A DNA stretch of 32,000 nt from Candidatus Saccharimonadota bacterium (GTDB taxonomy: Bacteria > Patescibacteriota > Microgenomatia > UBA1406 > GWC2-37-13): the NCBI GenBank assembly GCA_001790095.1, contig MGBH01000001.1, positions 60,001 through 92,000 on the forward strand, written 5' to 3'. Of this stretch, positions 16,645 through 28,487 are shown piece after piece. Position 1 is the stretch's first letter; every line of letters begins with the position of its first letter. The translations under genes and the position numbers were made by a program. The notes under the pieces were generated by a model. That model was not told the DNA's origin. It did no database searches and worked only from the letters and a program-made list of their open reading frames with translations.

Positions 16645-17421
16645 ATGAATTACCTACATGCAATTACGCTTGGAATTGTTGAAGGAATGACTGAATTTTT
16701 ACCCATTTCTTCAACTGCACACCTTATCATCGTGTCAAAACTTCTTCGACTTCCTTCTTCTGATTTTCAAAAGTTCTTTGAAGTATTTATACAGTCTGGA
16801 GCGATTCTTGCCATCATACTTATTTATTTTGAATATATTTTGAAACACAAAGAGATTTTAAAAAAGATAGGACTTTCATTTATACCAACGGCTATTATTG
16901 GGTTCCTTCTGTATAAAGTCATCAAAACAATTTTTTTTGAGTCGGGAATACTTATCATCATGGCAATGTTTTCGGTTGGAATACTTTTTTTTGTGTTGGA
17001 ATATTTTATTTCAAGTAAAAAAATTTCACTTACGCGTTCTCTTAACGGTCTTACCTTTGCGCAGGCTGTTTTTATAGGTTTGGCACAGTCTTTAGCGGTG
17101 GTGCCTGGAGTATCCCGTTCGGGGATAGTGATGCTTTATATGATGCTGGTAGGATATAAGCGTGATGAAGCCGCTCTATACTCCTTTCTTTTGGCAGCTC
17201 CGACCATAATAGCCGCATCAGGATATGATTTGTTCAAAATGAGGCATATTTTTAATGATTCCATACATTACCTACCACTATTATTAGTCGGGCTTATTAC
17301 GTCCTTTTTGGTGGCATATGTCGTTATAAAGTGGTTTATTGGCTTTTTGAAAAACAACTCTCTTGTCCCCTTTGGAATTTACCGGGTAGTACTTGCTATA
17401 ATATTGTTGTTTATTCGTTAA
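16645..17421 (+). CDS. uppP: Undecaprenyl-diphosphatase (UppP/BacA), 258 aa
   Basis: MNYLHAITLGIVEGMTEFLPISSTAHLII and PGVSRSG are the two conserved UppP motifs. The track ORF starts at 16531 inside the previous gene; ATG 16645 gives the canonical N-terminus. Confidence 0.93.
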   Translation: MNYLHAITLGIVEGMTEFLPISSTAHLIIVSKLLRLPSSDFQKFFEVFIQSGAILAIILIYFEYILKHKEILKKIGLSFIPTAIIGFLLYKVIKTIFFESGILIIMAMFSVGILFFVLEYFISSKKISLTRSLNGLTFAQAVFIGLAQSLAVVPGVSRSGIVMLYMMLVGYKRDEAALYSFLLAAPTIIAASGYDLFKMRHIFNDSIHYLPLLLVGLITSFLVAYVVIKWFIGFLKNNSLVPFGIYRVVLAIILLFIR

Positions 17422-17440
17422 ACTAGGATTAGTTTTTTAA

Positions 17441-17515
17441 GTCTCTGTAGTTCAACGGATAGAATGTGGGTTTCCGGAACCCATGATGGGAGTTCAATTC
17501 TCCCCGGAGACACCA
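17441..17515 (+). tRNA. tRNA-Arg (anticodon CCG), CCA encoded
   Basis: Hand-folded cloverleaf. Acceptor GTCTCTG/CGGAGAC, D stem GTTC/GAAT, anticodon stem TGGGT/ACCCA with loop TTCCGGA, T arm GGGAG-TTCAATT-CTCCC, then A-CCA. Confidence 0.85.
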
Positions 17516-17586
17516 GGGCCTATGGTTCAACGGAAGAATGTGGCATTCGCATTGCCAAGATCCGAGTTCAATTCTCGGTAGGTCCA
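17516..17586 (+). tRNA. tRNA-Ala (anticodon CGC), no encoded CCA
   Basis: Acceptor GGGCCTA/TAGGTCC carries the G3:U70 Ala identity pair. Anticodon stem TGGCA/TGCCA with loop TTCGCAT. T arm CCGAG-TTCAATT-CTCGG. It starts at the base immediately after the CCA of tRNA-Arg. Confidence 0.85.
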
Positions 17587-17587
17587 C

Positions 17588-18196
17588 ATGATAAAAAATC
17601 TTATTTTTGATTTGGGACAGGTTCTCCTTTTGCAGGAGAGAATTGAGATGTATGTATATCTTGCTAAAATATTTTCAATTCCTAAAGAAGAAGCCTTAGA
17701 ATTTTACTTCCAATACAAACGAGACTTAGTCACAGGTCGTATCAGTTCGCAAGACATGCTGCAGGTATTGAGTACGAAGTTCAAAACCCACAAATCCATA
17801 AATCAACTGATGGATGAATATAGGGCTTTATATTTGGCTGATTATAAGGGAGTAAACACGGAACTTCTTAATTATGTTGACAAGCTCAAAGAAAAATATT
17901 CTTTGTATATCTTTACTAACACTGTTGATGTACATGATGAAGAGGCGCAAAAACTCCCGATCTATAAGCATTTTTTGCGCGTATTCAAATCATACACTGA
18001 TCACATCATCAAACCAGAAGTACAATCATACCAGTATGTCGTAAACAAGATACAAGCAAAGCCTGAAGAATGCTTGTTTATAGATGATTTAGAGGAAAAT
18101 GTTGAAGGGGCTATAAAAGCAGGACTTATGGGTTTAGTTTATATCAATTTTGAACGGTTAAAAAAAGATTTCAAGGATATTGGGGTAGAAGTTTGA
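17588..18196 (+). CDS. HAD-superfamily hydrolase (subfamily IA-like), 202 aa
   Basis: Motif I IFDLGQVLL at the N-terminus, a TN motif (YIFTNT) and an acidic motif LFIDDLEENVEGA near the C-terminus. Confidence 0.85.
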   Translation: MIKNLIFDLGQVLLLQERIEMYVYLAKIFSIPKEEALEFYFQYKRDLVTGRISSQDMLQVLSTKFKTHKSINQLMDEYRALYLADYKGVNTELLNYVDKLKEKYSLYIFTNTVDVHDEEAQKLPIYKHFLRVFKSYTDHIIKPEVQSYQYVVNKIQAKPEECLFIDDLEENVEGAIKAGLMGLVYINFERLKKDFKDIGVEV

Positions 18197-18217
18197 TATA
18201 CTTGAAAGAGTAAAAAA

Positions 18218-18289
18218 GCGCCTATAGCTCAGCGGTAGAGCGCTACTCTTATAAAGTAGATGTCCTTGGTCCGAATCCAAGTGGGCGCA
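18218..18289 (+). tRNA. tRNA-Ile with anticodon UAU (reads AUA)
   Basis: Acceptor GCGCCTA/TGGGCGC, D arm GCTC-AGCGGTA-GAGC, anticodon stem CTACT/AGTAG with loop CTTATAA (TAT at 18250-18252), T arm CTTGG-TCCGAAT-CCAAG. The T loop reads TCC rather than the usual TTC. Confidence 0.75.
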
Positions 18290-19358
18290 CTAATATTTTT
18301 TGTAAACTTGTCTTCATTTGATCGGAGATATTGTTATATATGTACTCTATCTCTGCTTTACCCAAATTGAGATGCAACGCATGGGTAATAAAAGGATTCT
18401 TCCAAATAGAATATGTACCTAGTTCTTTTGTTTGCGTATTAAGCATGGTCACCAGTATTTGGAGCATCTTTGTGGTCATACTCTGTTTTTTATATAGATA
18501 TGTCAAAAGCGAGAGTGCGCATATCTCAACCGCTACTTGATCTTCGCTTGCCATGATGATTCCGGGATCAAGGTCAACGACATGTGAGGGAAAAAGGGAT
18601 AAAGCTGCATATTTATCAGGTCCAAGGGTGACCTGGGCTTTTGTAGCAGTTAGAAGGGTAAGACGAAGTTTTGATTTGACCGCAAGACTTATCTCAACGA
18701 TCTTTTTAAAGAAAGAGTCGCTTTTGTCATTGACTGTTTTTATACTTCCTTGTATTGCCCGAGTTTTCATAACGAAAGAAAAAGGTCCATTCATATGAAA
18801 TTCTAGTCTACTGTCTTCTCGCAACAGGCCGACAAAGTTCTTAAATCCAAGCGTTACTCCCGCTTGTACATGGGTGCTTAATCGGGGCAGATTGATGATA
18901 TGGTCGACTTTTTTGACCCAGTTAGTGATGAAAAACCCATGTTTCCAGGATAATCCATCAGATTTATATCGATAAAATCCCTTATCCCACCCTTCTTCCT
19001 CAAAAGCGGCAAAAGGAATTTCTTTCATCCTTTTCATACCCGATTTTTCATAGTTGCCCTTAGATGATCCTTTAACAGTCCCGTTTGGACTGTGAAGTAC
19101 ATGTCCGATACCTGATTGGTCACCGATTACGACTCGCGCACCCCTTTGTATTAATAATCGGGCAATTACTTCTATGGTAACTGGATCAGTTGTGGCAGGA
19201 TATGGGTCAGGAGAGTTGAGAGCTGGTTTTAACAATACGACGTCGCCCTTTGAAAGCCATGAAAGATCGTTGGTTGACTTAAGTAATATGTTTTTTATAG
19301 AAGACTCTAGATTCTTTTGTTCTTTTACTCCATATATATAGAGTTTTGATTTATACAT
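18249..19358 (-). CDS. DUF362 domain protein, 369 aa
   Basis: GDVVLLKPALNSPDPYPATTDPVTIEVIARLLIQRGARVVIGDQSG and INLPRLSTHVQAGVTLGFKNFVGLL match the DUF362 family pattern. The last 41 nt including the stop are antisense to tRNA-Ile. Confidence 0.8.
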   Translation of the reverse strand: MYKSKLYIYGVKEQKNLESSIKNILLKSTNDLSWLSKGDVVLLKPALNSPDPYPATTDPVTIEVIARLLIQRGARVVIGDQSGIGHVLHSPNGTVKGSSKGNYEKSGMKRMKEIPFAAFEEEGWDKGFYRYKSDGLSWKHGFFITNWVKKVDHIINLPRLSTHVQAGVTLGFKNFVGLLREDSRLEFHMNGPFSFVMKTRAIQGSIKTVNDKSDSFFKKIVEISLAVKSKLRLTLLTATKAQVTLGPDKYAALSLFPSHVVDLDPGIIMASEDQVAVEICALSLLTYLYKKQSMTTKMLQILVTMLNTQTKELGTYSIWKNPFITHALHLNLGKAEIEYIYNNISDQMKTSLQKILVRPLGFGPRTSTL

Positions 19359-19400
19359 AACAGTTGCCTATGATTTTTTTACTCCGTAATACTTATTTGA

Positions 19401-19409
19401 TGTTATAAT
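19401..19409 (+). promoter_or_regulatory. Extended -10 promoter TGtTATAAT upstream of tRNA-Phe
   Basis: TG at 19401-19402 and TATAAT at 19404-19409. The tRNA starts 20 nt downstream at 19429. Confidence 0.55.
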
Positions 19410-19428
19410 AATCATTGCGGATTATCCA

Positions 19429-19501
19429 GCTGAGATAGCCAAGGTGGTCACGGCGGGGGTCTGAAAAACCTCAGATGCGTGTTCGACTCACGCTCTCAGC
19501 A
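19429..19501 (+). tRNA. tRNA-Phe (anticodon GAA)
   Basis: Acceptor GCTGAGA/TCTCAGC, anticodon stem GGGGT/ACCTC with loop CTGAAAA, T arm GCGTG-TTCGACT-CACGC, discriminator A. The D arm (GCCA-AGGTGGTCA-CGGC) and the 4-nt variable loop are atypical for Phe. Confidence 0.7.
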
Positions 19502-19550
19502 CCTCGGTTAACTCAGTGTAAACACTTCGTCATTTCATTTTTCTATGTAA

Positions 19551-19556
19551 TATAAT
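19551..19556 (+). promoter_or_regulatory. -10 box TATAAT, 6 nt upstream of ATG 19563
   Basis: Read directly. The spacer atcttc contains no SD motif. Confidence 0.45.
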
Positions 19557-19562
19557 ATCTTC

Positions 19563-20174
19563 ATGGGAGCAGAGCATCATCGTTTACCAAAAGAAAACTT
19601 AGGAGTTATAGAGCACAATATTGGCCCAACGATCATTATAGCTAGTTTTTTAAATACTCATAGTGATCCAAGAGGCGAACACCCCAATATAGATATAGCA
19701 ACAAAGAGAACAGGAGTATGGTTGACTACCCCGCACATGATTCAAGATGAACTCTATGATTTCATCATTGGACCGGATGGGTTGGCTTCTTGTATTGCAG
19801 TGAGAAGAAACGATGGTAAACCCGTTATAGTTCAAGGATTTTCAACAGACAGTATTTCTGTTAGTTTAGTTAAAGATGTAGAATCGCATGATAATGCAAC
19901 ATTCACAAATATTCCTGAAGGAGAAGGGACGCAAAGCGTAGTTTCCAAATGGTATAAAAGGGATGGATTTGTTGAGTGCTATACAGTATTAACTCTACCC
20001 ATAAGTCCATCTGACAATCCGGTTAATTCATTTTCGCCATATGCGGAAAGAAAAAATCTTATTAGCGGTATGAACAACAGGGGGTTTCTTAGACTTGTAC
20101 CAAATATGGCATGGCCACTACGAAACACTGACAAAAGCGAGCTACCTTTTGGTCGAGAGCTTGGTAAGCATTAA
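19563..20174 (+). CDS. Hypothetical soluble protein, 203 aa, no family recognised
   Basis: Track ORF with non-repetitive, globular-looking composition and no TM span or signal peptide. It is the first gene after tRNA-Phe. Confidence 0.6.
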   Translation: MGAEHHRLPKENLGVIEHNIGPTIIIASFLNTHSDPRGEHPNIDIATKRTGVWLTTPHMIQDELYDFIIGPDGLASCIAVRRNDGKPVIVQGFSTDSISVSLVKDVESHDNATFTNIPEGEGTQSVVSKWYKRDGFVECYTVLTLPISPSDNPVNSFSPYAERKNLISGMNNRGFLRLVPNMAWPLRNTDKSELPFGRELGKH

Positions 20175-20423
20175 AACTATCTTTTTTCTTCAGTTTATTC
20201 AGTTTTCTTTCAGAAATAGTAGATATTCTTAAACTATGAAATACGGATGAGCCCGTATTTCAAAAAAAGGATAAGGGACGAGTCTGGTACATATACATGC
20301 TTGTTGTTTATGCCAGCCGTATGCTTTTTTTGCTCAGGACATTCAAAACATATGCTCTGAGTTTTATTGTGGAAATAGGTAGTAATAAAAAAAACCAAAA
20401 AAATTTTGAAGAGTTATTTCAAA

Positions 20424-21326
20424 TTAAATAGTTAATTGAAATTGTTGTTTTAACCAATCAATAGCTAAGTTTTTTACATCATTTAATGATCCATAATCTT
20501 CATTAAGTAAATATCCAGCTGCATAGACTATTGCATCATGTCTTTGCTGCAATATTTGACCCTTAGAACGATCAAATGGGTAAAGTTCAAGAGGTAGATT
20601 AATTCTTTCAAGAAACAACTTTTGCAATTCTTCAGTTAATTCATATGGATTTAATCCATTTGGGAGCTTCGTATCAACAAGGAGCAAACTGATAAATCTA
20701 CCTAGGTCCTGCGTGATCGGTCCAATAACAGCATTTTCATAATCTATAACCGCTATTGCCTCTGCAGTTCCTGGTCTAAATAGTACATTAGCTCTACCGA
20801 AGTCGCCATGAATCCATTGATTATTACCTTCATGACTTTCACCTTCAAAAGAAATACATTGTAATGCTCCATGCATTTTTCCCATTAACCCAATTGCAGA
20901 GTCAATTTCAAGTGAATTGTAAGGATATCTATTTTCACCCTCTGTATATTGTGTATGTGTGACTAGCAATCCATCTTCAGTCATAGATACAGGTACTTCA
21001 GGATCAATTAGTTGTCTCCCAGGGATGTCAAAGTGTCTTGACATAGCATCTTCAATAAGAATACCTTTAATTATTTGTGGCCATCGAATGTCACTTTGTC
21101 GCCAATAAATATCAACCTGATTACTTCCTCCTTTTTTAACAACAAGATTCCTATGACCACCATGAAGCAATTCATCTCCCGGTGATAGTACTTTCTGAGC
21201 AGTCTTTTGTTTCCAAACATGTGCATCTTGTGGACATACAGAATTCATGTATGTTGCCTTTTCAGATCCTCGGATAAGCGCTTGAATTGAAGGCGTTATT
21301 TTTAAGTTAACGGTTTCGTGCATCAT
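20424..21326 (-). CDS. Aminoglycoside phosphotransferase / CotS / choline-kinase-like small-molecule kinase fold, 300 aa
   Basis: Catalytic loop WIHGDFGRANVLF (HGDxxxxN, residues 173-180) followed by VIDYENAVIG (D195/E197 metal-binding motif). A Lys-containing strand LVVKK lies in the N-lobe. Confidence 0.75.
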   Translation of the reverse strand: MMHETVNLKITPSIQALIRGSEKATYMNSVCPQDAHVWKQKTAQKVLSPGDELLHGGHRNLVVKKGGSNQVDIYWRQSDIRWPQIIKGILIEDAMSRHFDIPGRQLIDPEVPVSMTEDGLLVTHTQYTEGENRYPYNSLEIDSAIGLMGKMHGALQCISFEGESHEGNNQWIHGDFGRANVLFRPGTAEAIAVIDYENAVIGPITQDLGRFISLLLVDTKLPNGLNPYELTEELQKLFLERINLPLELYPFDRSKGQILQQRHDAIVYAAGYLLNEDYGSLNDVKNLAIDWLKQQFQLTI

Positions 21327-21446
21327 AAATTGTTGAACTAATATTCAATATGAAGGCTTATTATAGCAGATTGCTATAGGATATGTCCACTATACTTATT
21401 AATTTAATTACTTTAATTGAAGACAATACTATTTAATTATCCTTAG

Positions 21447-22682
21447 CTATATTTTAAGAGGAGTAACGGTAATTTCTGGTTTTTGTACTATGGTTTTGGG
21501 ATCATATTGGACATTTATATGATGTTGAGTTACTCTACTTGGAATAGTTATTTCGCCTGATGTTGTTATAAAATCTCCTATTTCCATGGTTTGACTTACT
21601 GCTTTTGGATCTATTAAAATTCTTGAACCCTCCCATGTACAAGTTCTGTCTTGTAAGGATTTTACTAAATAAGGATTATAAGAATTAAACTCAAACCTAC
21701 CGTCTTTAAGCTCACGGTGAACAACTCCAGCTATTGGAAAAGCATGCCCTCCGTTAATAGCAATAAATAATTTAGCCGCTTCAGGTTGAACATGTCCCAA
21801 ATAATACTCAGCAGGACTTATTCCTTTTTTCATCAGCATATGAGCATATCTTGTATTATCGTCACAAACCATCCCCAAATCTAGCCAGTCCACTTCTTGA
21901 AGCGATTTTTGCATAAAAGAATACATTGTTGGTGGGTCAAGAAAGTCACCCAGTTTAAAATTTATACCCAGGTCGTTAATAATTCTATATAAGGGCGAAT
22001 TTTTCTCTCCTTCCCCAAACATCATTACAAGATGATCTGCGATCTGAGAAGCAACAGCATGTTTTTGTTTATAATATCTTCCGTCTAAATTACCTTTCCA
22101 TTTTTCAGGCGGCTCATCTTGGAGTGATCCCTTTCCTCTTTCTTCTGATTTGAGGGGAAAACAATCAACTTTTGTGACTATTAGGGTTTGCTCTGCAAGA
22201 TCAAAATCTATAAATAGTTCTTTGTCAATATTAGAATCTAAGGCAACACCTTCAACTTCCTGTAAATGTTTTAGCATTTCCAGATAACCCATCACCCCAG
22301 CCATTTGAAATTTATATGGTAAATGTCTATTATGATTTTCTGAACCATCCAGTAAAGTTTCACCTTGCGCTCTTTCTAATGCAATCTCATTTGACATTAA
22401 CTGATCACCTTCGATATTCAAAGATTTAACAAGTCTTGTTTTCACTTTCCAACCAGGAAGATGTATTCCTAACTCCTCACATAATGTAACTCTTTCCATA
22501 CCACTATGTTCTTTTAAAAAATCTGCCTCTGCTTTAATAGAGTCCAATTGACCACTACGCGCTCTTTTTATAATGATAGGAGTGTTTCCTAGTGTAGCTT
22601 CATGTATAGTTGCTTGTGATCCTATATCACTTAATAGAGAACCTCGAGTTAATCTATTTGTAGGTGGAACTGTTTCGGACAT
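21447..22682 (-). CDS. Hypothetical 411-aa protein with a degenerate Bud32/RIO/Kdo-kinase-like N-terminal region and an unassigned C-terminal half
   Basis: Track ORF. LLSDIGSQATIHEATLGNTPIIIKRA (loop plus Lys39), AEADFLKE, IALERAQGETL (hinge-like) and ALDSNIDKELFIDFDL (DFD resembles DFG). The catalytic loop does not fit HxDxxxxN. Confidence 0.6.
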   Translation of the reverse strand: MSETVPPTNRLTRGSLLSDIGSQATIHEATLGNTPIIIKRARSGQLDSIKAEADFLKEHSGMERVTLCEELGIHLPGWKVKTRLVKSLNIEGDQLMSNEIALERAQGETLLDGSENHNRHLPYKFQMAGVMGYLEMLKHLQEVEGVALDSNIDKELFIDFDLAEQTLIVTKVDCFPLKSEERGKGSLQDEPPEKWKGNLDGRYYKQKHAVASQIADHLVMMFGEGEKNSPLYRIINDLGINFKLGDFLDPPTMYSFMQKSLQEVDWLDLGMVCDDNTRYAHMLMKKGISPAEYYLGHVQPEAAKLFIAINGGHAFPIAGVVHRELKDGRFEFNSYNPYLVKSLQDRTCTWEGSRILIDPKAVSQTMEIGDFITTSGEITIPSRVTQHHINVQYDPKTIVQKPEITVTPLKI

Positions 22683-22688
22683 CTAATT

Positions 22689-22694
22689 ATTATA
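22689..22694 (-). promoter_or_regulatory. -10 box TATAAT, 6 nt upstream of the ATG at 22680-22682
   Basis: The plus strand reads attata at 22689-22694. The spacer ctaatt is 6 nt. Confidence 0.5.
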
Positions 22695-22762
22695 TCAATA
22701 AAGCTAATAGGACAATATCTTGCGTAATACTCGAATTATACTTATTTGAGTTTGACTCACAT

Positions 22763-23611
22763 TCAAGCATTAATAGACATAAGTTGTCTAGTTATTTGAA
22801 TAGCTCCTTTTCTCACAGGGTCAAATTTTTCAATAAAATCTTCCCATCTTTCAGGTTGAACAAATTCTTCATTTTCAAGAGCTTTTTCAACCGCCTCCAG
22901 ATGCGCTTTTCCAACAACAATTCCTTTTCTACCAGGTAGTTCAGTCATTAAACGTTTAATATTTGGACCCAAATATTCATATTCACTCAGAAATCCTCTA
23001 TAACATATTGCGATAGCAGCTGTTAATCTTAAGATGTCTAACAACACCTCATCTGTAATCGTTTCGGGAAGTTGACCTTTATTTATTACAATGCTCCGTA
23101 GCCGATTTTTTATACTAGCTATGTCTAAAGACTCAACATTGTCTTGTATTGACAAGACTCTTTGAATGCCGTCATCTATCGCCTTAAACGCTTCTTGTGT
23201 ACTTTTTGCATTGATAATAGGTTCTGCATACTGGCTAAGCAACAGATAGGTACCCATTTCGTTTTTATCTAATCCATATTTGTCTGTCATCTCAAAGATA
23301 TTACAACCTTCTTCCAGCGGATGAATTGGAGTTTTATGTTTTTTTTTAAAGGTTGATACAATGTATCTTTCATAAGCGAACTGGTCAAAGTCATACATTT
23401 TTCTAAGGGATGTTGAGGTGCCTTCACATAATAAATTATCACAAGTTCTCAATACAGGAAAAATTTTCATTCTCATTTCAGGTGAAACCTGGGTTGCAGT
23501 ATGATTTAATGCAAAGATGTTAACACTCCCTCGTGAATATATATCTGGTTCAACTCTGAGAGCTATTTTTCTTGGCAGCTCAATTCTTCTTGGTACAGCA
23601 AGCTCAAACAT
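22763..23611 (-). CDS. Hypothetical 282-aa protein, possible TraB/GumN/Tiki-like fold
   Basis: Track ORF. N-terminal IFALNHTATQVSPEMR..LLCEG resembles the GTxHVxxxS..E motif, and C-terminal GIVVGKAHLEAVEKAL resembles the VVGxxHL motif of the TraB/PrgY/GumN family. This is a weak motif-level call. Confidence 0.55.
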   Translation of the reverse strand: MFELAVPRRIELPRKIALRVEPDIYSRGSVNIFALNHTATQVSPEMRMKIFPVLRTCDNLLCEGTSTSLRKMYDFDQFAYERYIVSTFKKKHKTPIHPLEEGCNIFEMTDKYGLDKNEMGTYLLLSQYAEPIINAKSTQEAFKAIDDGIQRVLSIQDNVESLDIASIKNRLRSIVINKGQLPETITDEVLLDILRLTAAIAICYRGFLSEYEYLGPNIKRLMTELPGRKGIVVGKAHLEAVEKALENEEFVQPERWEDFIEKFDPVRKGAIQITRQLMSINA

Positions 23612-23617
23612 ATTTGT

Positions 23618-23623
23618 ATTATA
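23618..23623 (-). promoter_or_regulatory. -10 box TATAAT, 6 nt upstream of the ATG at 23609-23611
   Basis: The plus strand reads attata at 23618-23623. The spacer atttgt is 6 nt. Confidence 0.5.
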
Positions 23624-23708
23624 CTATAAGTTATTCACTACCATATCTCTGTTTGTATTTTTATATCAAGTTTGATAAGATACCATCTTATTACTTTAAC
23701 TAATCAAT

Positions 23709-24266
23709 ATGCCCTCATTACATGAAGACATGCGATATGAAACTGTATTTGGTGTTAATGGTGAATCATTAAAACAAACTCCACATTATTTTCATGTAAC
23801 CATCTCGGAAGGTCAATCATTGTGGGGAGATGCTTTAGGTTTAGCCGAAAACGTTAAAACATCAATGGATCCACTTTTTTATAGTAGAAACGGCGACAAT
23901 CTTGGATTAACCGTGCAGGAAGTAGGAAAATTTGGAGCATCAGCAGTAACATGGAAAGATACTAAAACAAATGAGACGCGTCTTCTTATGATGACAGATG
24001 GTTATAATATTGTTGTTCCAGATCCGAGTTTTCTCCCAATTGGAGATCAGTGCTGTAATGATGCAAGCGGTATCAATATTGGGATACAAGGTCATGATGA
24101 TTTGTCATCTTACCAGAAAAGTATGCCATGGGTTAATGCAGTTCTTACAAAGCTAGGTATGAATAACGGAAAAACAGCAGAACCTTTAACCATTGAGGAA
24201 ATGGCAGGTCATATGAGAAGAAAAATAAACGAGGCTCAGATAAAGAATAGAAGATCTCATTTTTAA
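23709..24266 (+). CDS. Hypothetical soluble protein, 185 aa, no family recognised
   Basis: Track ORF, divergent from the 282-aa gene, with globular composition and a basic C-terminal tail RRKINEAQIKNRRSHF. Confidence 0.6.
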   Translation: MPSLHEDMRYETVFGVNGESLKQTPHYFHVTISEGQSLWGDALGLAENVKTSMDPLFYSRNGDNLGLTVQEVGKFGASAVTWKDTKTNETRLLMMTDGYNIVVPDPSFLPIGDQCCNDASGINIGIQGHDDLSSYQKSMPWVNAVLTKLGMNNGKTAEPLTIEEMAGHMRRKINEAQIKNRRSHF

Positions 24267-24402
24267 CTTCTTAAAGAGACAGTTTACTTATGTAGCCGGG
24301 GACAACAATTCTCTATGTCATAGACATAAAAAAATTTGTGTTGGAGATGACTATTCTTAAGAATTAGCCTGAAGCAAAGACCTTGAGAGGCAAACAGAGC
24401 TG

Positions 24403-24411
24403 TGATATACT
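24403..24411 (+). promoter_or_regulatory. Extended -10 promoter TGaTATACT upstream of the tRNA-Gly fragment/hairpin
   Basis: TG at 24403-24404 and TATACT at 24406-24411. The predicted transcription start falls just before the tRNA-like fragment at 24421/24422. Confidence 0.45.
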
Positions 24412-24420
24412 TTCTTCACA

Positions 24421-24486
24421 TGCGGTGGTAGTTCCCCACTTCGTTCCAATATATATTGGAACTTCGAGGGGCAAGCTACAAACGCA
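24421..24486 (+). other. tRNA-Gly 5' fragment (14 nt) fused to a long imperfect hairpin; a pseudo-tRNA, leader or small insertion remnant
   Basis: tgcggtggtagttc at 24421-24434 is identical to 24534-24547 (position -1 to 13 of tRNA-Gly). It is followed by CCCC (24434-24437), ACTTCG, the perfect palindrome TTCCAATAT/ATATTGGAA (24444-24461), CTTCGA and GGGG (24468-24471). The outer tgcggtggtag can pair 9/11 with ctacaaacgca (24476-24486). Confidence 0.5.
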
Positions 24487-24534
24487 TATAAGTCAGATAA
24501 CATGTTTACACTTCGAAGCTTTATGCAAAGAAGT

Positions 24535-24609
24535 GCGGTGGTAGTTCAACGGTAGAATGTTTCCTTGCCAAGGAAAAGGTTGCCGGTTCAAATCCGGTCC
24601 ACCGCTCCA
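24535..24609 (+). tRNA. tRNA-Gly (anticodon GCC), CCA encoded
   Basis: Acceptor GCGGTGG/CCACCGC, D arm GTTC-AACGGTA-GAAT, anticodon stem TTTCC/GGAAA with loop TTGCCAA, T arm GCCGG-TTCAAAT-CCGGT, discriminator U, then CCA. Confidence 0.88.
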
Positions 24610-24616
24610 GTTGATA

Positions 24617-25168
24617 TTAATAAAAGAATACTTTTAAGATATATAGATCCCACACAATCATCATTCCCAAAAAGAAAGCTTCCCATAAGCCACCATTTTT
24701 ATTTTTTTGATATAAAAACACTGTCCCTAAGGTATAGATTATTGCTATAAAAAGACCGACATAACCGATCGATCTGTTTATCTCAAGTATTAATAGATGG
24801 AGGTATAATAACCAGATCAAAGAAATTGCAAATAGTAAAAAACCAAAAATTAAATGCCCCTTTATATTTTTGTGGGCAGGTATAAATCCCACCATAAACA
24901 TAGACAGATATGCTAAAAGCATCAAGGCAATGACAACAATATTGCTTTGTAGTCCAAGATGGTAAATAAGGATAAATAAATATATGATTCTCATGATTGA
25001 TGTGACGATCACAGTGAGATTAAAATAGATAGCAGTTTCTTTTATGGTGCCAAAGAATGATAATGGTTGTTTGCGAATGCTAAATTTACCATGTTTTTTT
25101 GCACAAAGATAAAAAGAAGTTGCCATGAAGACCGAACTGACAATTCCGATATATTTCAAATACTGCAT
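24617..25168 (-). CDS. Small polytopic membrane protein, 183 aa (about 6 TM spans), family not recognised
   Basis: Track ORF, strongly hydrophobic throughout. It is one of the few genes here with an SD-like AAGAGG about 7 nt upstream of the ATG. Confidence 0.65.
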   Translation of the reverse strand: MQYLKYIGIVSSVFMATSFYLCAKKHGKFSIRKQPLSFFGTIKETAIYFNLTVIVTSIMRIIYLFILIYHLGLQSNIVVIALMLLAYLSMFMVGFIPAHKNIKGHLIFGFLLFAISLIWLLYLHLLILEINRSIGYVGLFIAIIYTLGTVFLYQKNKNGGLWEAFFLGMMIVWDLYILKVFFY

Positions 25169-25178
25169 AAGAGACCTC

Positions 25179-25655
25179 TTATTTTTTCACTAAACATAGT
25201 ATTTCTTCAAACGCTCCTTTGTCTGAAGGAAACGTAAGGATCTTTTTTACTTCTTCCTCTGGCACAAATTTAGCATCCATCATCTCCCAATCATGATCTT
25301 TTGGATCACCTGAGATATATTCCATCAAATAGTAATACACTGTTTTATGGACCATAAAATTCTCTTTGCTTGTTTTTCCATGAGGTGATCCGCGCCAATG
25401 ATACGAGTATTTTGTGATGACAGGTTGGGGGTGGATGATCTTGGCCTTTATGCCCCCCTCTTCTTCTACTTCCCGAAGTGCTGCTGATTCTTTTGATTCA
25501 TCACTATCTTTATCACCGATCAACCCTTTCGGAAAAGTCCAGCCTTTATGTTGTGAATGTTGGCATATCAACCACTCACATTTGACATCTGACATTTGAC
25601 TTTTGACTTTTCTATATACGATGCCTCCTGAGGATGTCTCATTTTTTTCTTTCAT
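25179..25655 (-). CDS. NUDIX hydrolase, about 158 aa
   Basis: Nudix box GLIGDKDSDESKESAALREVEEEGGI (GX5EX7REVXEEXGI). The track ORF starts at a TTG (25664); ATG 25653-25655 (MKEKNETSSGG) is the more likely start. Confidence 0.88.
   Translation of the reverse strand: MKEKNETSSGGIVYRKVKSQMSDVKCEWLICQHSQHKGWTFPKGLIGDKDSDESKESAALREVEEEGGIKAKIIHPQPVITKYSYHWRGSPHGKTSKENFMVHKTVYYYLMEYISGDPKDHDWEMMDAKFVPEEEVKKILTFPSDKGAFEEILCLVKK
25582..25609 (+). repeat. Four tandem heptamers TTGACAT-CTGACAT-TTGACTT-TTGACTT inside the NUDIX 5' coding region
   Basis: Read directly at 25582-25609. Each unit contains a -35-like TTGAC(A/T) on the plus strand. Confidence 0.8.
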
Positions 25656-25663
25656 ACAGTACA

Positions 25664-25669
25664 ATTATA
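25664..25669 (-). promoter_or_regulatory. -10 box TATAAT, 8 nt upstream of the NUDIX ATG
   Basis: The plus strand reads attata at 25664-25669. The spacer is 25656-25663. Confidence 0.45.
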
Positions 25670-25697
25670 GAACATTATTATTTACATAGATTTCGGT

Positions 25698-26006
25698 ATG
25701 CATATACATAAAAACATTCACAAAAAGGTTCAAAACGAATCACTATTAACACCTCCTCTTACCATTCAAACAGGATCGGGATTTGTCCTTTTACACAAAG
25801 GGGAAGAGGTTGGCGAACATACAACTGAAAATAGAGAAGAAGTAATATATATTATTGAAGGCGAGGCCATGATTGAGATGGAGGGAGAAAAAGAATACTT
25901 AGAAGCAGGGTCGATCGCCTATATCCCACCCAACAAAAAACATAATGTGAAAAACGAAGCCGATGAGGATCTGAAATACATGTATGTGGTGAGTCATTTC
26001 TCCTGA
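25698..26006 (+). CDS. Cupin-domain protein, 102 aa
   Basis: GEEVGEHTTENREEVIYIIEGEAMIEMEGEKEYLEAGSIAYIPPNKKHNVKN shows the two cupin motifs (G-x5-H-x-H/E-like and G-x5-P-x4-H-x3-N). Confidence 0.85.
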   Translation: MHIHKNIHKKVQNESLLTPPLTIQTGSGFVLLHKGEEVGEHTTENREEVIYIIEGEAMIEMEGEKEYLEAGSIAYIPPNKKHNVKNEADEDLKYMYVVSHFS

Positions 26007-26746
26007 CTTTTTTTGTAGTATTGTCCACCCATTTCGTATTCAAAGATAGGGGTTCGGATCGGTCCTTTTATGAGCTGGTAAAACAAAGCCTTGAATGATT
26101 TAAACAGACTAGAAAAAAGGCCTTCTTTTTCAAAACGTCTTGTTGAGACATAGAGAATAGGATTTGGAAAGACAGCAAATCTTGCTCCAAGTTTGTTTGC
26201 CCGCTGTATAAGGTCAAAATCTTCTCCAAAGAATATCGTGTCGTCAAATCCTTTTAGCCTCTCAAATAATTCTTTTTTGATAAGTATGCAGGGGCCATTG
26301 GCTGCCGGTTTGATCTTTTGAAACAAAGTCATACTCATATTTAACAAAGCCAGGGTCATAACTCCTTTTACATTTTTTGTTTTAGGTCTGTTCCAAACGG
26401 TTAACGCATCAAGATTATTTGTTTTGATGTGCACTTCTACTTTTTCTATAAAATCACGTTCTACTTCGACATCTGCATCAAAAAAGATAAGCCACTTTCC
26501 CTTAGCGATACTTGCTCCATGATTTCGTGCGGCGCTAACGTTTTTTGTCGGATTGGTTATAAAGCGGAGGGATGGCAGTTTAGCACCAAGATTTTGTGCA
26601 AATTCTTTTGTACGATCTTTTGAACCACTGTCATTGACAATAACTTCAAAGTTTCCCTTTGTTTGAAGAGCAAGACTCTCAAGGAGAAGGGGGAGACGAT
26701 ATTCTTCATTTAAAGAGGGGATGATGACAGAGAAAAAGATATCCAT
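25994..26746 (-). CDS. GT2 family glycosyltransferase, 250 aa
   Basis: [21 protein letters not shown] and FFDADV (DxD) form the GT-A signature. The 3' end overlaps the cupin 3' end by 13 nt. Confidence 0.88.
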
Positions 26747-26753
26747 ACCTTAG

Positions 26754-26759
26754 ATTATA
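26754..26759 (-). promoter_or_regulatory. -10 box TATAAT, 7 nt upstream of the GT2 ATG
   Basis: The plus strand reads attata at 26754-26759. The ATG is at 26744-26746. Confidence 0.45.
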
Positions 26760-26787
26760 ACCGAGTTATCTTTTTGCGGTATTGCAG

Positions 26788-26793
26788 TATAAT
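26788..26793 (+). promoter_or_regulatory. -10 box TATAAT, 13 nt upstream of ATG 26807
   Basis: Read directly. Back-to-back with the minus-strand -10 box at 26754-26759. Confidence 0.4.
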
Positions 26794-26806
26794 ATCAACA
26801 TCTTTT

Positions 26807-28222
26807 ATGAAAAGGATCATCATCATAGGCGCAGGACCAGCTGGTCTCGCTGCAGCATATGAATTATGCAGGACAAAAGATTCAAAGTTATCCATTTCTC
26901 TCTTTGAAACCGACGATCAAGTTGGCGGAATTTCAAAGACACTCCAATATAAAGGTTACCGTTTTGACTTAGGAGGTCATAGATTCTATACAAAGATTCA
27001 GGAAATAGATCAATTTTACAAATCATTTTTAGGAAAGAATCTCCTGAAGAGAAAGAGACTCTCCCGTATATATTACGAAAAAAAATTCTACGATTATCCA
27101 CTTACTTTTATGAATGCTCTTACAAACCTTGGTTTCTTAAGGTCGGTAGAGATCGTTTTAAGTTGGTTCTATAGGCAGTTAAATCGATATAAAATGGAAA
27201 AGACATTTGATAAATGGATTTCAAACAGGTTCGGAGATAAGCTCTTTCATCTTTTTTTTAAATCTTACACAGAAAAAGTGTGGGGAATATCTACTTCTAA
27301 ACTATCCTCAGATTGGGCTGCGCAAAGGATACAAAATTTTAATTTGTTTAGGGCAGTTCTTGGTGCAATTTTGAGTTTGGATACAAGCGATGTAAAAACA
27401 ATAATCCGAACTTTCTTTTATCCAAAATATGGTCCTGGCATGTTGTATGAAGAGCTGCAAAGATACGTTGAAAAAAAAGGAGTTAACGTCTATATGAACC
27501 ATAAGGTAACGGGATTAAAACGTACTAAAAATAAGGTAACCCACGTTTTAGTTAAGGATATTAAGAAAGGCATAGTTACGCACATTAAAGCAGATGCCAT
27601 TATCTCAACCATGCCGTTTAATGAGCTGATCTCACTTTTACATCCACCTGAAAAACTCACAACTCAGGTGAAGTCCTTACGTTTTAGAAATTTTATTACG
27701 GTGAACTTGTTGCTCAAAAAAAACCCTTTTCCAGATCAATGGGTCTACGTACACGAACCAGATGTAAAAGTTGGTCGAATTCAGAATTTTAGAAACTGGA
27801 GTCCGTATATGGTAAAAAAAGGAGGAGGATTAACTCCAGTTGGGATGGAATACTTTTGCTCGGAGGGAGATAAGATGTGGAAAACAACTGATGCAGCACT
27901 AATATCTTTAGCCAAAGAAGAGTTAGCAAGAATAGGGCTAGCAAAAGAAGAAGATATCAGAGAGGGCTTTGTCTACAGAGTTAAAAACGCATACCCTATT
28001 TATAACTTTGACTATGACGGTACTCTTAAACTCTCAAAAAAGTATGCATCAAATTTCAAAAATCTATTTTTATGCGGGAGGGGGGGGCTTTTCAGGTATA
28101 ACAATCAAGACCATTCTATATTGACTGGTTTTTTTGCAGCAAGAAGTGTTTTTTCTACAGATCGTAAACACGATGTATGGAGTATCAATGAAAACAGCGA
28201 ATTTCTTGAAGAAAAACTGTAG
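26807..28222 (+). CDS. NAD(P)/FAD-dependent oxidoreductase (amine-oxidase / protoporphyrinogen-oxidase-like fold), 471 aa
   Basis: [20 protein letters not shown] is a Rossmann GxGxxG dinucleotide-binding motif, followed by [18 protein letters not shown]. The track ORF begins at TTG 26774; ATG 26807 gives the canonical N-terminus. Confidence 0.85.
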
Positions 28223-28305
28223 GGACTATTTGTTTATCCCCCTTGGATGCGGTACAATAGTAAGATTGTTTACGCATATATAAACACAAGATTACAAGCT
28301 CATTA

Positions 28306-28378
28306 GGCGCGTTGGCGAAGTGGAAACGCGGGAGTCTGCAAAACTTCTACTGCGCCGGTTCGATTCCGGCACGCGCCT
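28306..28378 (+). tRNA. tRNA-Cys (anticodon GCA)
   Basis: Acceptor GGCGCGT/ACGCGCC, anticodon stem GGAGT/ACTTC with loop CTGCAAA, T arm GCCGG-TTCGATT-CCGGC, discriminator U. The variable region looks 1 nt longer than usual in my fold. Confidence 0.78.
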
Positions 28379-28383
28379 CACTA

Positions 28384-28473
28384 GGAGGGGTCGCATAGTG
28401 GACTAGTGCGTTAGTCTTGAAAACTAATGTGGGCGCAAGCCTACCGCGAGTTCGAATCTCGCCCCCTCCGCCA
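28384..28473 (+). tRNA. tRNA-Ser (anticodon UGA), class II with a long variable arm, CCA encoded
   Basis: Acceptor GGAGGGG/CCCCTCC, anticodon stem TTAGT/ACTAA with loop CTTGAAA, long variable arm, T arm GCGAG-TTCGAAT-CTCGC, then G-CCA. Confidence 0.88.
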
Positions 28474-28487
28474 CAGTTTTTTAATAT

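What the first reader, a model, noticed from the sequence alone, without database searches (positions are those of the whole stretch)
19502..24534. 5-kb block between tRNA-Phe and tRNA-Gly with five soluble, unassignable or kinase-fold genes
Nearly everything else in the window is recognisable envelope or housekeeping function, packed in overlapping operons. This block differs. It holds five consecutive CDS (203, 300, 411, 282 and 185 aa) with no TM span or signal peptide. They are separated by 80-250 bp AT-rich spacers, and four of the five have a canonical TATAAT upstream. The block starts 61 nt after the 3' end of tRNA-Phe, a classic genomic-island insertion position. It ends at a rearranged tRNA-Gly locus with a duplicated tRNA 5' fragment. 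Its content is two different protein-kinase-like folds, a possible TraB/Tiki-like protein and two ORFans, and I do not recognise this combination as a described system. I could not see an integrase or a clear GC shift, so this is a candidate accessory module (defence, host interaction or signalling), not a proven island.
Basis: partly seen in the sequence, partly recalled or inferred. Interest (0 to 1): 0.72.

Follow-up and report, generated by a model that had tools for sequence, protein, structure and literature searches.

The report
Variable gene block between two tRNAs
The five genes are real and fill a gap between two tRNA genes that varies widely among related groundwater bacteria, but they look like a patchwork of lineage-specific accessory genes (two are kinases), not a new defence or signalling system.

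Summary
The window comes from Candidatus Roizmanbacteria RIFOXY*_FULL_38_12 (CPR/Microgenomates). The five ORFs, both tRNAs, the AT-rich spacers, the TATAAT boxes and the duplicated tRNA-Gly 5' fragment are all there.

In about 75 related loci, Arg-Ala-Ile-Phe-Gly is a conserved tRNA array. The Phe-Gly spacer runs from 3 nt to 5031 nt across 47 loci. The window has the longest, and the inserts in relatives are unrelated genes.

Total GC is unchanged, but GC3 is 0.21-0.28 in all five genes and 0.28-0.44 in 41 neighbouring genes.

- **Against a single recent island:** there is no integrase and no repeat brackets the block. The promoters are host-type. The 282-aa protein has 54-58% homologues near the same tRNA-Gly in three other lineages, about as diverged as the flanking orthologues.
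- **Against a cassette:** the 300/411/282 trio does not co-occur elsewhere. PADLOC, PHROGs, phage and IMG/VR searches found nothing.
- **Proteins:** the 300-aa protein is an APH-family kinase. The 411-aa protein belongs to a very rare family (15 hits in 1.84 billion proteins) and has a confident protein-kinase fold with an atypical catalytic loop. TraB/Tiki was not supported. The 203- and 185-aa proteins remain unassigned.

Verdict: this is an ordinary tRNA-adjacent flexible region, and the rare kinase family is the only modestly novel part.

The parts
17441..17587 (+). tRNA-Arg(CCG) and tRNA-Ala(CGC), the first two members of the conserved Microgenomates tRNA array
   Evidence: ARAGORN and Rfam. 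The same order follows BacA in most related loci.
17588..18196 (+). HAD-hydrolase gene filling the Ala-Ile spacer (lineage-variable)
   Evidence: Pfam families. A homologue appeared in only one related locus (L051). The Ala-Ile spacer is at most 200 nt in 21 of 39 loci.
18218..18290 (+). tRNA-Ile(UAU), third array member
18249..19358 (-). DUF362 gene filling the Ile-Phe spacer (lineage-variable); its 3' end overlaps tRNA-Ile on the opposite strand
   Evidence: Pfam DUF362 4e-29. No homologue in 76 related loci. The Ile-Phe spacer is at most 200 nt in 55 of 64 loci.
19429..19503 (+). tRNA-Phe(GAA), left border of the block; its 3' end is not duplicated anywhere in the window
19563..20174 (+). 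P1, 203 aa, soluble, no family assigned; TATAAT ends 6 nt before the ATG
   Evidence: GC1>GC2>GC3 (0.485/0.412/0.279) fits a real coding gene.
20424..21326 (-). P2, 300 aa, APH/choline-kinase-type phosphotransferase with intact HGDxxxxN and IDYE motifs
   Evidence: Pfam PF01636 at 9.9e-10, 39 bits against a cutoff of 23.2, matching residues 167-214. Weak NCBIfam and PDB hits to MTR kinase, the ACAD10/11 kinase domain and APH. Motifs read from the translation.
21447..22682 (-). P3, 411 aa: an N-terminal protein-kinase-like domain of about 285 aa (K39, E52, D149-S-N151-I-D153, D173) plus a C-terminal beta-rich domain
   Evidence: Only 15 proteins at E<=1e-3 in 1.84 billion. Alignment A2 has D149 and D173 invariant. 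AlphaFold2 pLDDT 91.7, pTM 0.89. Foldseek PDB gave 106 hits at E<=1e-3; all listed are protein kinases. The profile hits kinase N-lobes in PDB, MLK1 at 3e-4.
22763..23611 (-). P4, 282 aa, a conserved protein of unknown fold; recurrent resident of the Phe-Gly spacer in related lineages
   Evidence: Four homologues at 54-58% identity over the full length. Contexts L036, L039 and L040. No Pfam or PDB profile hit. AlphaFold2 pLDDT only 52.5.
23709..24266 (+). P5, 185 aa, soluble, no family assigned
   Evidence: GC1/2/3 = 0.478/0.387/0.247.
24383..24411 (+). Sigma-70-like promoter (TTGAGA-17-TGnTATACT) of the ancestral tRNA-Gly transcription unit
   Evidence: The -10 region joined directly to the tRNA-Gly 5' end is conserved in L039 and L040.
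24421..24547 (+). Two exact 14-nt direct repeats (24421-24434 and 24534-24547, the latter being the 5' end of tRNA-Gly) bracketing a 99-nt insert with a 23-nt palindromic hairpin (24434-24471); an att-like scar
   Evidence: Analogous 13-nt partial-tRNA duplications occur in 13 related loci.
24535..24609 (+). tRNA-Gly(GCC), right border of the block

Best explanation
The block is the local content of a recurrent plasticity hot spot. Microgenomates carry a conserved tRNA array, BacA - tRNA-Arg(CCG) - Ala(CGC) - Ile(UAU) - Phe(GAA) - Gly(GCC) - NUDIX, and the spacers between its tRNAs gain and lose protein genes. Phe-Gly is the most variable spacer.

In this Roizmanbacteria species the spacer has grown to 5 kb and holds five independently transcribed, cytoplasmic, non-essential genes of mixed age:
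- an older resident (the 282-aa P4 family);
- at least three genes not seen in any sampled relative of the locus (P1, P2, P5);
- P3, a member of a very rare kinase family.

Inferred mechanism: elements carrying recombinases integrate at the tRNA genes and later decay or are partly deleted. Possibly whole spacers are also exchanged between relatives by homologous recombination on the conserved tRNAs. Cargo and partial-tRNA scars are left behind. The 14-nt repeat with its 99-nt insert at tRNA-Gly would be one such scar.

P2 and P3 keep every catalytic residue expected of active phosphotransferases, so they probably phosphorylate a small molecule and a protein respectively. That is inferred, not shown. 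The five genes do not form one system.
For: Shown:
- Organism identity comes from source names.
- The conserved array and variable spacers were seen in 32 GTDB and 44 JGI loci.
- The Phe-Gly distance runs from 3 to 5031 nt in 47 loci. It is at most 167 nt in 21 and at least 1 kb in 18, and the window is the largest.
- Phe-Gly is the most variable of the four spacers.
- Cargo in relatives is unrelated. It includes PEP carboxylase plus an aminotransferase, an MFS transporter, a flavodoxin-like protein, membrane glycosyltransferase-like proteins, a GIY-YIG nuclease and a trypsin-like protease.
- A large serine recombinase abuts tRNA-Gly in L031.
- 13-nt partial tRNA duplications occur in 13 related loci.
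- P4 homologues lie inside the same spacer, antisense to the tRNAs, in L036 and L039, and just upstream of tRNA-Gly in L040.
- P4 is 54% identical to its L036 homologue, and the syntenic flanking orthologues are 47-70% identical.
- The window and L036 fall in one clade in the GT4+BacA tree.
- Neighbours of P3 and P4 homologues elsewhere are unrelated to P2, P3 or P4.
- Each of P1, P3 and P4 has the host's own leaderless-type TATAAT layout.
- GC3 and tetranucleotide composition deviate.
- Kinase assignments rest.
- The same model, additive tRNA-adjacent islands in which most islands hold no intact element, is described for Prochlorococcus (10.1101/2020.12.28.424599).
Against: - No recombinase and no repeat bracketing the 5-kb block were found in the window, so integration at this locus is inferred from relatives only.
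- The 14-nt repeat brackets 99 nt, not the block.
- The closest sampled relative (L021) is cut at tRNA-Phe, so its spacer content is unknown.
- All five genes share the low GC3, including the apparently old P4. That fits a common history or common weak selection better than a strict 'mixed age' picture.
- P1, P2 and P5 were never searched successfully against the large protein databases (one search failed), so their wider distribution is unknown.
- A functional link among the genes cannot be excluded from only five contexts of homologues.
Confidence: 0.6

Rival explanations
1. A single, recently acquired genomic island: one integrative element delivered all five genes from a foreign, more AT-rich donor next to tRNA-Phe or tRNA-Gly and then lost its integrase.
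For: All five genes have lower GC3 than any of 41 neighbouring genes, and C at four-fold sites is halved. The tetranucleotide distance peaks on the block. The block is absent from 76 related loci. An att-like scar lies at tRNA-Gly. A serine-recombinase element sits at the same tRNA in a relative.
Against: There is no integrase or remnant, and no direct repeat brackets the block. P4 has syntenic homologues in the same spacer, about as diverged as the flanking orthologues. P4 homologues also sit at the low end of GC3 in their own genomes, for example 0.254 against 0.315-0.349 in L040, so low GC3 may be intrinsic to the gene. The promoters are of the host's own leaderless type. No phage, plasmid-like or IMG/VR relatives were found.
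Confidence: 0.15
2. A coherent functional module, for example a kinase-based anti-phage defence or a set of effectors acting on the host cell of this presumed episymbiont: two kinases, a hydrolase-like protein and two adaptors.
For: Two intact-looking kinases of different families sit side by side on one strand. All five proteins are soluble. They lie in a variable region, as defence and effector genes often do. Most of the proteins have no known family.
Against: PADLOC gave no hits apart from one chance-level 0.04 match. Partners do not co-occur in the five available contexts of P3 and P4 homologues. The genes have separate promoters and divergent orientations, so they are not an operon. There are no secretion signals. 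Cargo in the same spacer of relatives is mostly metabolic or envelope-related.
Confidence: 0.1
3. No horizontal transfer at all: these are vertically inherited, weakly expressed, fast-evolving genes that have simply been lost in most relatives, and their AT-rich silent sites reflect relaxed codon selection under AT-biased mutation.
For: P4 is syntenic and as diverged as its flanks. P4 and P3 homologues have lowish GC3 in other genomes too. The promoters are host-type. There are no mobility genes.
Against: P1, P2, P3 and P5 were not found in any of 76 related loci, which would require many independent losses. P3's only close homologues (44-49%) sit in unrelated contexts. Other unannotated genes of the same genome have normal GC3. 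Relatives show clear foreign cargo and a recombinase at the same array, and partial-tRNA scars are common.
Confidence: 0.15

Closest known systems
tRNA-adjacent additive genomic islands (for example Prochlorococcus islands remodelled by tycheposons; classical pheV/pheU islands of Enterobacteria)
   Same: The block lies directly beside tRNA genes. It is present in some related genomes and absent in others. Cargo is heterogeneous and silent-site composition deviates. Partial-tRNA repeats are present, and most individual islands lack an intact element.
   Different: The hot spot here is the inside of a conserved five-tRNA array, not the flank of a single tRNA. No integrase or bracketing att repeats are present in this copy. 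The only scar duplicates the 5' end of tRNA-Gly, not the usual 3' end. At least one gene (P4) is an old, syntenic resident.
APH / choline-kinase phosphotransferase family (Pfam PF01636)
   Same: P2 passes the Pfam gathering score and keeps the HGDxxxxN catalytic loop and the IDxE metal-binding motif.
   Different: Only residues 167-214 align to the profile. There is no equivalog-level match to any characterised subfamily such as MTR kinase, SrkA or AmgK (all far below cutoff), so the substrate is unknown.
Eukaryotic-type (Hanks) protein kinases and atypical protein-kinase-like families
   Same: The P3 model has the bilobal kinase topology: beta1-3 with K39, alphaC with E52, alphaE-beta6-catalytic loop-beta7-beta8 and then D173. 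It matches CK1, LRRK2, PknG, PINK1 and IRE1 at E down to 6e-6. The family profile hits kinase N-lobes.
   Different: No Pfam kinase model matches. TM-scores are only 0.4-0.5. The catalytic loop reads (L/M)-D-S-N-I-D instead of HRDxKxxN. The close homologues carry an extra C-terminal beta domain. The family has only 15 detectable members in 1.84 billion representatives.
TraB/PrgY/GumN/Tiki metalloprotease-like family
   Same: From memory only: one GxxH motif near the C-terminus (G234-K-A-H237) and a conserved His (H37) and Glu (E63) near the N-terminus, spaced roughly as in that family.
   Different: No member of the P4 family hits PF01963 or any related Pfam model even at E<=10. The profile has no PDB match. 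The N-terminal motif lacks the Gly. The AlphaFold model was too poor to compare folds.

Membership tests
Integrase-mediated tRNA genomic island / integrative element | Site-specific recombinase (tyrosine or serine) gene or remnant inside the element | tested here: not met
   No recombinase family among the five proteins in Pfam, NCBIfam or PHROGs. No other ORF of 60 aa or more with such a hit in 19504-24534.
Integrase-mediated tRNA genomic island / integrative element | Direct repeats (att, a partial tRNA copy) bracketing the element | tested here: not met
   Only the 14-nt repeat at 24421/24534, which brackets 99 nt. The tRNA-Phe 3' end is unique even with up to 3 mismatches.
Integrase-mediated tRNA genomic island / integrative element | Presence/absence polymorphism at a conserved site in related genomes | tested here: met
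   Phe-Gly spacer 3-5031 nt in 47 loci; block genes absent from 76 loci, except P4 homologues in L036 and L039 and beside tRNA-Gly in L040.
Integrase-mediated tRNA genomic island / integrative element | Compositional deviation from the host genome | tested here: met
   GC3 0.206-0.279 against 0.281-0.439 in 41 genes (no overlap); tetranucleotide maximum on the block; total GC unchanged.
Known anti-phage defence systems (PADLOC-DB v2) | At least one protein matching a defence-system model | tested here: not met
   No hit except DrmMI at E=0.04, 10 bits, for P5.
Conserved gene cassette (300/411/282 trio) | Homologues of the three proteins adjacent in other genomes | tested here: not met
   The P3 homologue contexts L002 and L003 and the P4 homologue contexts L036, L039 and L040 have neighbours with no similarity to P2, P3 or P4. 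The sample is small, at five contexts.
APH phosphotransferase family PF01636 (P2) | Score above the Pfam gathering threshold | tested here: met
   39 bits against 23.2, E=9.9e-10.
APH phosphotransferase family PF01636 (P2) | Catalytic HxDxxxxN loop and downstream metal-binding Asp | tested here: met
   H172-G-D174-F-G-R-A-N179 and I193-D194-Y-E196, read from the translation.
Protein-kinase-like superfamily (P3) | Bilobal kinase fold | tested here: met
   AlphaFold2 pLDDT 91.7; 106 PDB and 46 BFVD matches at E<=1e-3, nearly all listed ones protein kinases, with a few ABC1/UbiB-type atypical kinases and unnamed entries in BFVD.
Protein-kinase-like superfamily (P3) | Conserved beta3 Lys, alphaC Glu, catalytic Asp and metal-binding Asp | tested here: met
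   The beta3 position (K39 in P3) is Lys in all 13 sequences that cover it. E52 is at least 90% conserved. D149 and D173 are invariant in 15 sequences. Their positions fit the model's secondary structure.
Protein-kinase-like superfamily (P3) | Canonical HRDxKxxN catalytic loop, or a match to the Pfam Pkinase models (membership of Hanks-type kinases proper) | tested here: not met
   The loop is L-D-S-N-I-D-K-E. No Pfam hit for P3 or for ten family members.
Protein-kinase-like superfamily (P3) | Phosphotransfer activity | not testable with these tools
   Needs biochemistry.
TraB/PrgY/GumN/Tiki family (P4) | Match to PF01963 or a related profile | tested here: not met
   No hit for any of the five family members at E<=10 or in NCBIfam.
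TraB/PrgY/GumN/Tiki family (P4) | Tiki/erythromycin-esterase-like alpha/beta fold | tested here: inconclusive
   The model has pLDDT 52.5, and Foldseek returned nothing at E<=1e-3.

The most novel reading that the evidence does not exclude
The two neighbouring kinases (the APH-type P2 and the rare P3 family with its D-S-N-x-D catalytic loop and extra beta domain), together with P4, P1 and P5, form a so far undescribed kinase-centred accessory system of CPR bacteria. It could serve immunity or manipulation of the host cell, and it would move between Microgenomates by exchange of inter-tRNA spacers.
Probability: 0.08. Interest if true: 0.6.

Novelty: new member of a known kind. Interest (0 to 1): 0.3.

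Why it matters
The finding shows how very small CPR genomes keep a flexible gene pool. A conserved five-tRNA array acts as a landing strip where genes come and go, much as in tRNA-adjacent islands of other streamlined bacteria.

The practical gain is modest. It marks one spacer (Phe-Gly) in Microgenomates as a place to look for accessory functions. It also flags a very rare, confidently modelled kinase-fold family with an unusual catalytic loop that could be tested biochemically. It does not reveal a new system.

Tried and rejected
It is uninformative, and P1 and P5 therefore have no valid large-database search.
2. The first genome-contig scan, with the DUF362 flank protein, found nothing. An exact 35-nt tRNA-Phe pattern worked instead.
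3. I looked for dN/dS evidence from strain variants. L086-L088 are more than 99.7% identical, so there is no power. An apparent split of P5 in L088 is a scaffold N-gap, not a frameshift.
4. A possible P4-like 'GTNH' protein next to tRNA-Phe in L007 shows no significant similarity.
5. P1 and P5 are not paralogues. P2 and the P3 family show no profile similarity.
6. A weak P1 tblastn hit in a Pantoea phage (E=2e-3, one record, over a region annotated as hypothetical proteins and DNA polymerase) was judged to be chance.
9. Promoter-like sites are not enriched over shuffles, and the TATAAT layout is not specific to the block.
10. Rfam found nothing but tRNAs in 17000-29000.

Full report
**Origin of the window.** Exact look-ups place all five proteins in Candidatus Roizmanbacteria bacterium RIFOXY*_FULL_38_12 as OGK62056-OGK62060. 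They occur on contigs up to 1.2 Mb and are seen in dozens of samples. This is a CPR/Microgenomates genome of about 36% GC.

**Checking the observation.**
- The five ORFs have the stated sizes and positions. tRNA-Phe(GAA) is at 19429-19503 and tRNA-Gly(GCC) at 24535-24609.
- None of the five proteins has a hydrophobic stretch like the neighbouring DUF998 membrane protein. Maximum 19-residue hydropathy is 0.69-1.52 against 2.59.
- The spacers are 59-268 nt, with GC of 0.22-0.31 except the last at 0.38.
- An exact TATAAT lies at -12 of P1, P3 and P4 and at -39 of P2.
- The tRNA-Gly 5' fragment is an exact 14-nt direct repeat at 24421 and 24534, with a chance expectation of 0.06.

One qualification applies to the promoters. 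Loose promoter-like matches are not enriched over shuffles, and the TATAAT-at-minus-12 layout also occurs at three genes outside the block. It is therefore a trait of the organism, with leaderless-type starts and almost no Shine-Dalgarno motifs, and it does not set the block apart.

**Composition.** Third-codon-position GC does. It is 0.206-0.279 in the five block genes and 0.302-0.376 in the other 25 genes of the window, with no overlap. With 16 more genes from 20 kb of adjoining genome the background range is 0.281-0.439, still with no overlap. Several background genes also lack any annotation yet have normal GC3. C at four-fold sites is halved, 0.086 against 0.176. The block also has the largest tetranucleotide distance in the window.

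**Comparison with relatives.** A 35-nt stretch of this tRNA-Phe retrieved 32 loci from GTDB species representatives and 44 from JGI metagenomes, all Microgenomates-like. Mapping tRNAs, ORFs and homologues of the window's proteins shows a conserved backbone:

GT4 - BacA - tRNA-Arg(CCG) - tRNA-Ala(CGC) - tRNA-Ile(UAU) - tRNA-Phe(GAA) - tRNA-Gly(GCC) - (DUF998-like) - NUDIX - GT2 ... tRNA-Cys - tRNA-Ser.

In 47 loci where tRNA-Phe is followed by tRNA-Gly on the same strand, the gap runs from 3 nt to 5031 nt. It is at most 167 nt in 21 loci and at least 1 kb in 18, and the window's is the largest.

| Spacer | Loci with a gap of 1 kb or more |
|---|---|
| Arg-Ala | 3 of 45 |
| Ala-Ile | 8 of 39 |
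| Ile-Phe | 6 of 64 |
| Phe-Gly | 18 of 47 |

The inserts in relatives are unrelated to the block and to each other. They include:
- an archaeal-type PEP carboxylase with an aminotransferase;
- an MFS transporter;
- a flavodoxin-like protein;
- large membrane glycosyltransferase-like proteins;
- a GIY-YIG nuclease;
- a trypsin-like protease;
- in L039, aldehyde dehydrogenase and TPP-enzyme genes with GC3 near 0.5, which are plainly foreign.

In L031 a large serine recombinase reads into the tRNA-Gly gene. In 13 loci a 13-nt fragment of a tRNA end is repeated nearby, in one case bracketing a 351-aa ORF. In the window the HAD gene (Ala-Ile) and the DUF362 gene (Ile-Phe) are lineage-specific fillings of the same kind.

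**The scar at tRNA-Gly.** A sigma-70-like promoter at 24383-24411 sits just before the first copy of the repeat. The junction of that -10 region with the first 14 nt of tRNA-Gly is conserved in L039 and L040, where it leads straight into the tRNA. The first copy is therefore the ancestral promoter-tRNA junction. A 113-bp segment, made of 99 nt with a strong palindromic hairpin plus the 14-nt duplication, was inserted. It looks like the remnant of a site-specific insertion. It does not bracket the 5-kb block. No other repeat does, and the tRNA-Phe 3' end is unique.

**Is the block one unit?** The evidence says no.
- P3 has only two close homologues among 5.8 billion proteins, at 49% and 44% identity. 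Their neighbours are unrelated to P2 or P4.
- P4 has four homologues at 54-58% identity over the full length, and their neighbours are unrelated to P3 or P2.
- In L036 and L039 the P4 homologue lies inside the Phe-Gly spacer, antisense to the tRNAs as in the window. In L040 it lies one gene upstream of the tRNA-Gly promoter junction, as in the window.
- L036 shares the whole GT2-NUDIX ... BacA-GT4-MacB synteny with the window. Its P4 is 54% identical, within the 47-70% range of the flanking orthologues.
- In a GT4+BacA neighbour-joining tree the window groups with L021, and that pair is sister to L022, L028 and L036.

P4 is therefore most simply an old resident of this spacer, lost in some lineages. 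P1, P2, P3 and P5 were found in none of the 76 loci. P4 still shares the low GC3 of the block, and P4 homologues sit at the low end of GC3 in their own genomes. The silent-site signal therefore cannot be read simply as recent foreign origin. It fits either weak selection on accessory genes or replacement of the whole spacer from a related, more AT-rich donor.

**The proteins.**
- **P2 (300 aa)** passes the Pfam APH threshold (39 bits, E=1e-9). It keeps HGDxxxxN and IDYE, but only residues 167-214 align and no characterised subfamily is matched.
- **P3 (411 aa)** has no Pfam, NCBIfam, PADLOC, PHROG or PDB sequence hit. An exhaustive profile search of 1.84 billion representatives found 15 proteins. 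Most are stand-alone proteins of about 285 aa matching the N-terminal part, and none of the ten scanned has a Pfam hit. In the 15-sequence alignment D149 and D173 are invariant, E52, F55, P122 and N151 are nearly so, and the position of K39 is Lys in every sequence that covers it. The family profile weakly but consistently hits the N-lobes of protein kinases in PDB; 72 sequences matched at E<=10, with MLK1 at 3e-4. AlphaFold2 with this alignment gives pLDDT 91.7 and pTM 0.89. Foldseek finds 106 PDB chains at E<=1e-3, and every listed one is a protein kinase, including CK1, LRRK2, PknG, PINK1, Abl and IRE1. Target-normalised TM-scores are 0.4-0.5 for the compact kinase domains. Giant-virus kinases match at the same remote level. 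The secondary-structure order places D149 in the catalytic loop and D173 at the DFG position, but the loop reads L-D-S-N-I-D instead of HRDxKxxN. P3 is thus a divergent, probably active member of the kinase-like superfamily with an extra C-terminal beta domain. Its activity is inferred.
- **P4 (282 aa)** has no profile hit in Pfam even at E<=10 for any of its five family members, and none in PDB. Its model is poor (pLDDT 52.5) and gives no fold match. The TraB/Tiki idea rests on one GxxH motif and remains unsupported.
- **P1 and P5** have no hit in Pfam, NCBIfam, PADLOC, PHROGs, PDB or phage genomes. Their codon-position GC pattern fits real genes. Their wider distribution is unknown because the one large search covering them failed.

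**Mobile or defence origin.** PADLOC gave nothing, and neither did PHROGs. tblastn against 50,697 phage records gave nothing beyond one chance-level hit. IMG/VR scans for the P2, P3 and P4 families were negative.

**Conclusion.** The evidence does not support a coherent accessory module or a single recent island. The best reading is an ordinary additive flexible region of mixed age, inside a tRNA array that serves as an insertion and exchange site across Microgenomates. This matches the model described for tRNA-adjacent islands in Prochlorococcus. The only modestly novel element is the rare P3 kinase family. Interest is low to moderate.

Noticed in passing
window 18218-18290; also L004-L085: A tRNA-Ile with anticodon UAU (TAT) is a conserved member of the Arg(CCG)-Ala(CGC)-Ile(UAU)-Phe(GAA)-Gly(GCC) array in about 75 Microgenomates loci. 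A dedicated AUA-reading tRNA-Ile(UAU) is unusual in bacteria.
   Followed up: partly
window: starts at 19563, 22682, 23611, 15448, 26746, 2486: An exact TATAAT ends 6-10 nt before the start codon of several first-in-unit genes, both inside and outside the block. Shine-Dalgarno-like motifs are almost absent upstream of the 30 genes examined. This suggests widespread leaderless transcripts in this CPR genome.
   Followed up: partly
L031 (CAZPYR010000049.1); re-oriented coordinates 5225-6844 (-), tRNA-Gly 5255-5329: A large serine recombinase (Resolvase + Recombinase + Zn_ribbon_recom) has a 3' end that runs antisense into tRNA-Gly and tRNA-Phe. This looks like an integrated element at the same tRNA array in a relative.
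   Followed up: partly
L039 1042-4069: The Phe-Gly spacer of this relative holds aldehyde dehydrogenase and split TPP-enzyme genes with GC3 of 0.49-0.53, next to a P4 homologue with GC3 of 0.31. This cargo is clearly foreign.
   Followed up: no
L008, L015, L024, L043, L045, L053, L058, L063, L064, L070, L080, L082 (re-oriented coordinates): Exact 13-nt copies of tRNA 3' or 5' ends lie 45-1680 nt from the intact tRNA. In L058 the tRNA-Phe 5' fragment and the tRNA bracket a 351-aa ORF. Duplication of a 5' end is the less usual geometry for tRNA-targeted integration.
   Followed up: partly
window 18249-18290: The DUF362 ORF (18249-19358, minus strand) overlaps tRNA-Ile by 42 nt on the opposite strand. 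Unlike its neighbours, the collection lists no NCBI protein accession or name for it, so its true stop or its status as a gene may differ.
   Followed up: no
window 24434-24471: A 23-nt-arm palindrome (83% complementary) sits inside the 99-nt insert upstream of tRNA-Gly. The 198-nt region folds at -61.3 kcal/mol, z=-3.6. It would be part of a 113-nt leader if tRNA-Gly is still transcribed from the upstream promoter.
   Followed up: partly
P0032 (112 aa): This is a P3-like protein fragment. The catalytic-loop segment (MGYL...LDSNID...KVDCFP) is joined almost directly to the C-terminal strand (GDFVTTS...PEITVIPL). It is either a deletion variant or an assembly artefact.
   Followed up: no
L082 10695-10782 (re-oriented): A second tRNA-Ser-like gene with anticodon ACT shares its first 13 nt with the nearby tRNA-Ser(TGA) and has its own 3' fragment repeated 115 nt downstream.
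   Followed up: no
window 7138-8709 (-) and 8501-9724 (+): The longest ORFs on opposite strands overlap by about 200 nt. Gene calls on the same genome start these genes further in (490 and 333 aa instead of 523 and 407), so the mechanical ORF starts are probably too early.
   Followed up: no
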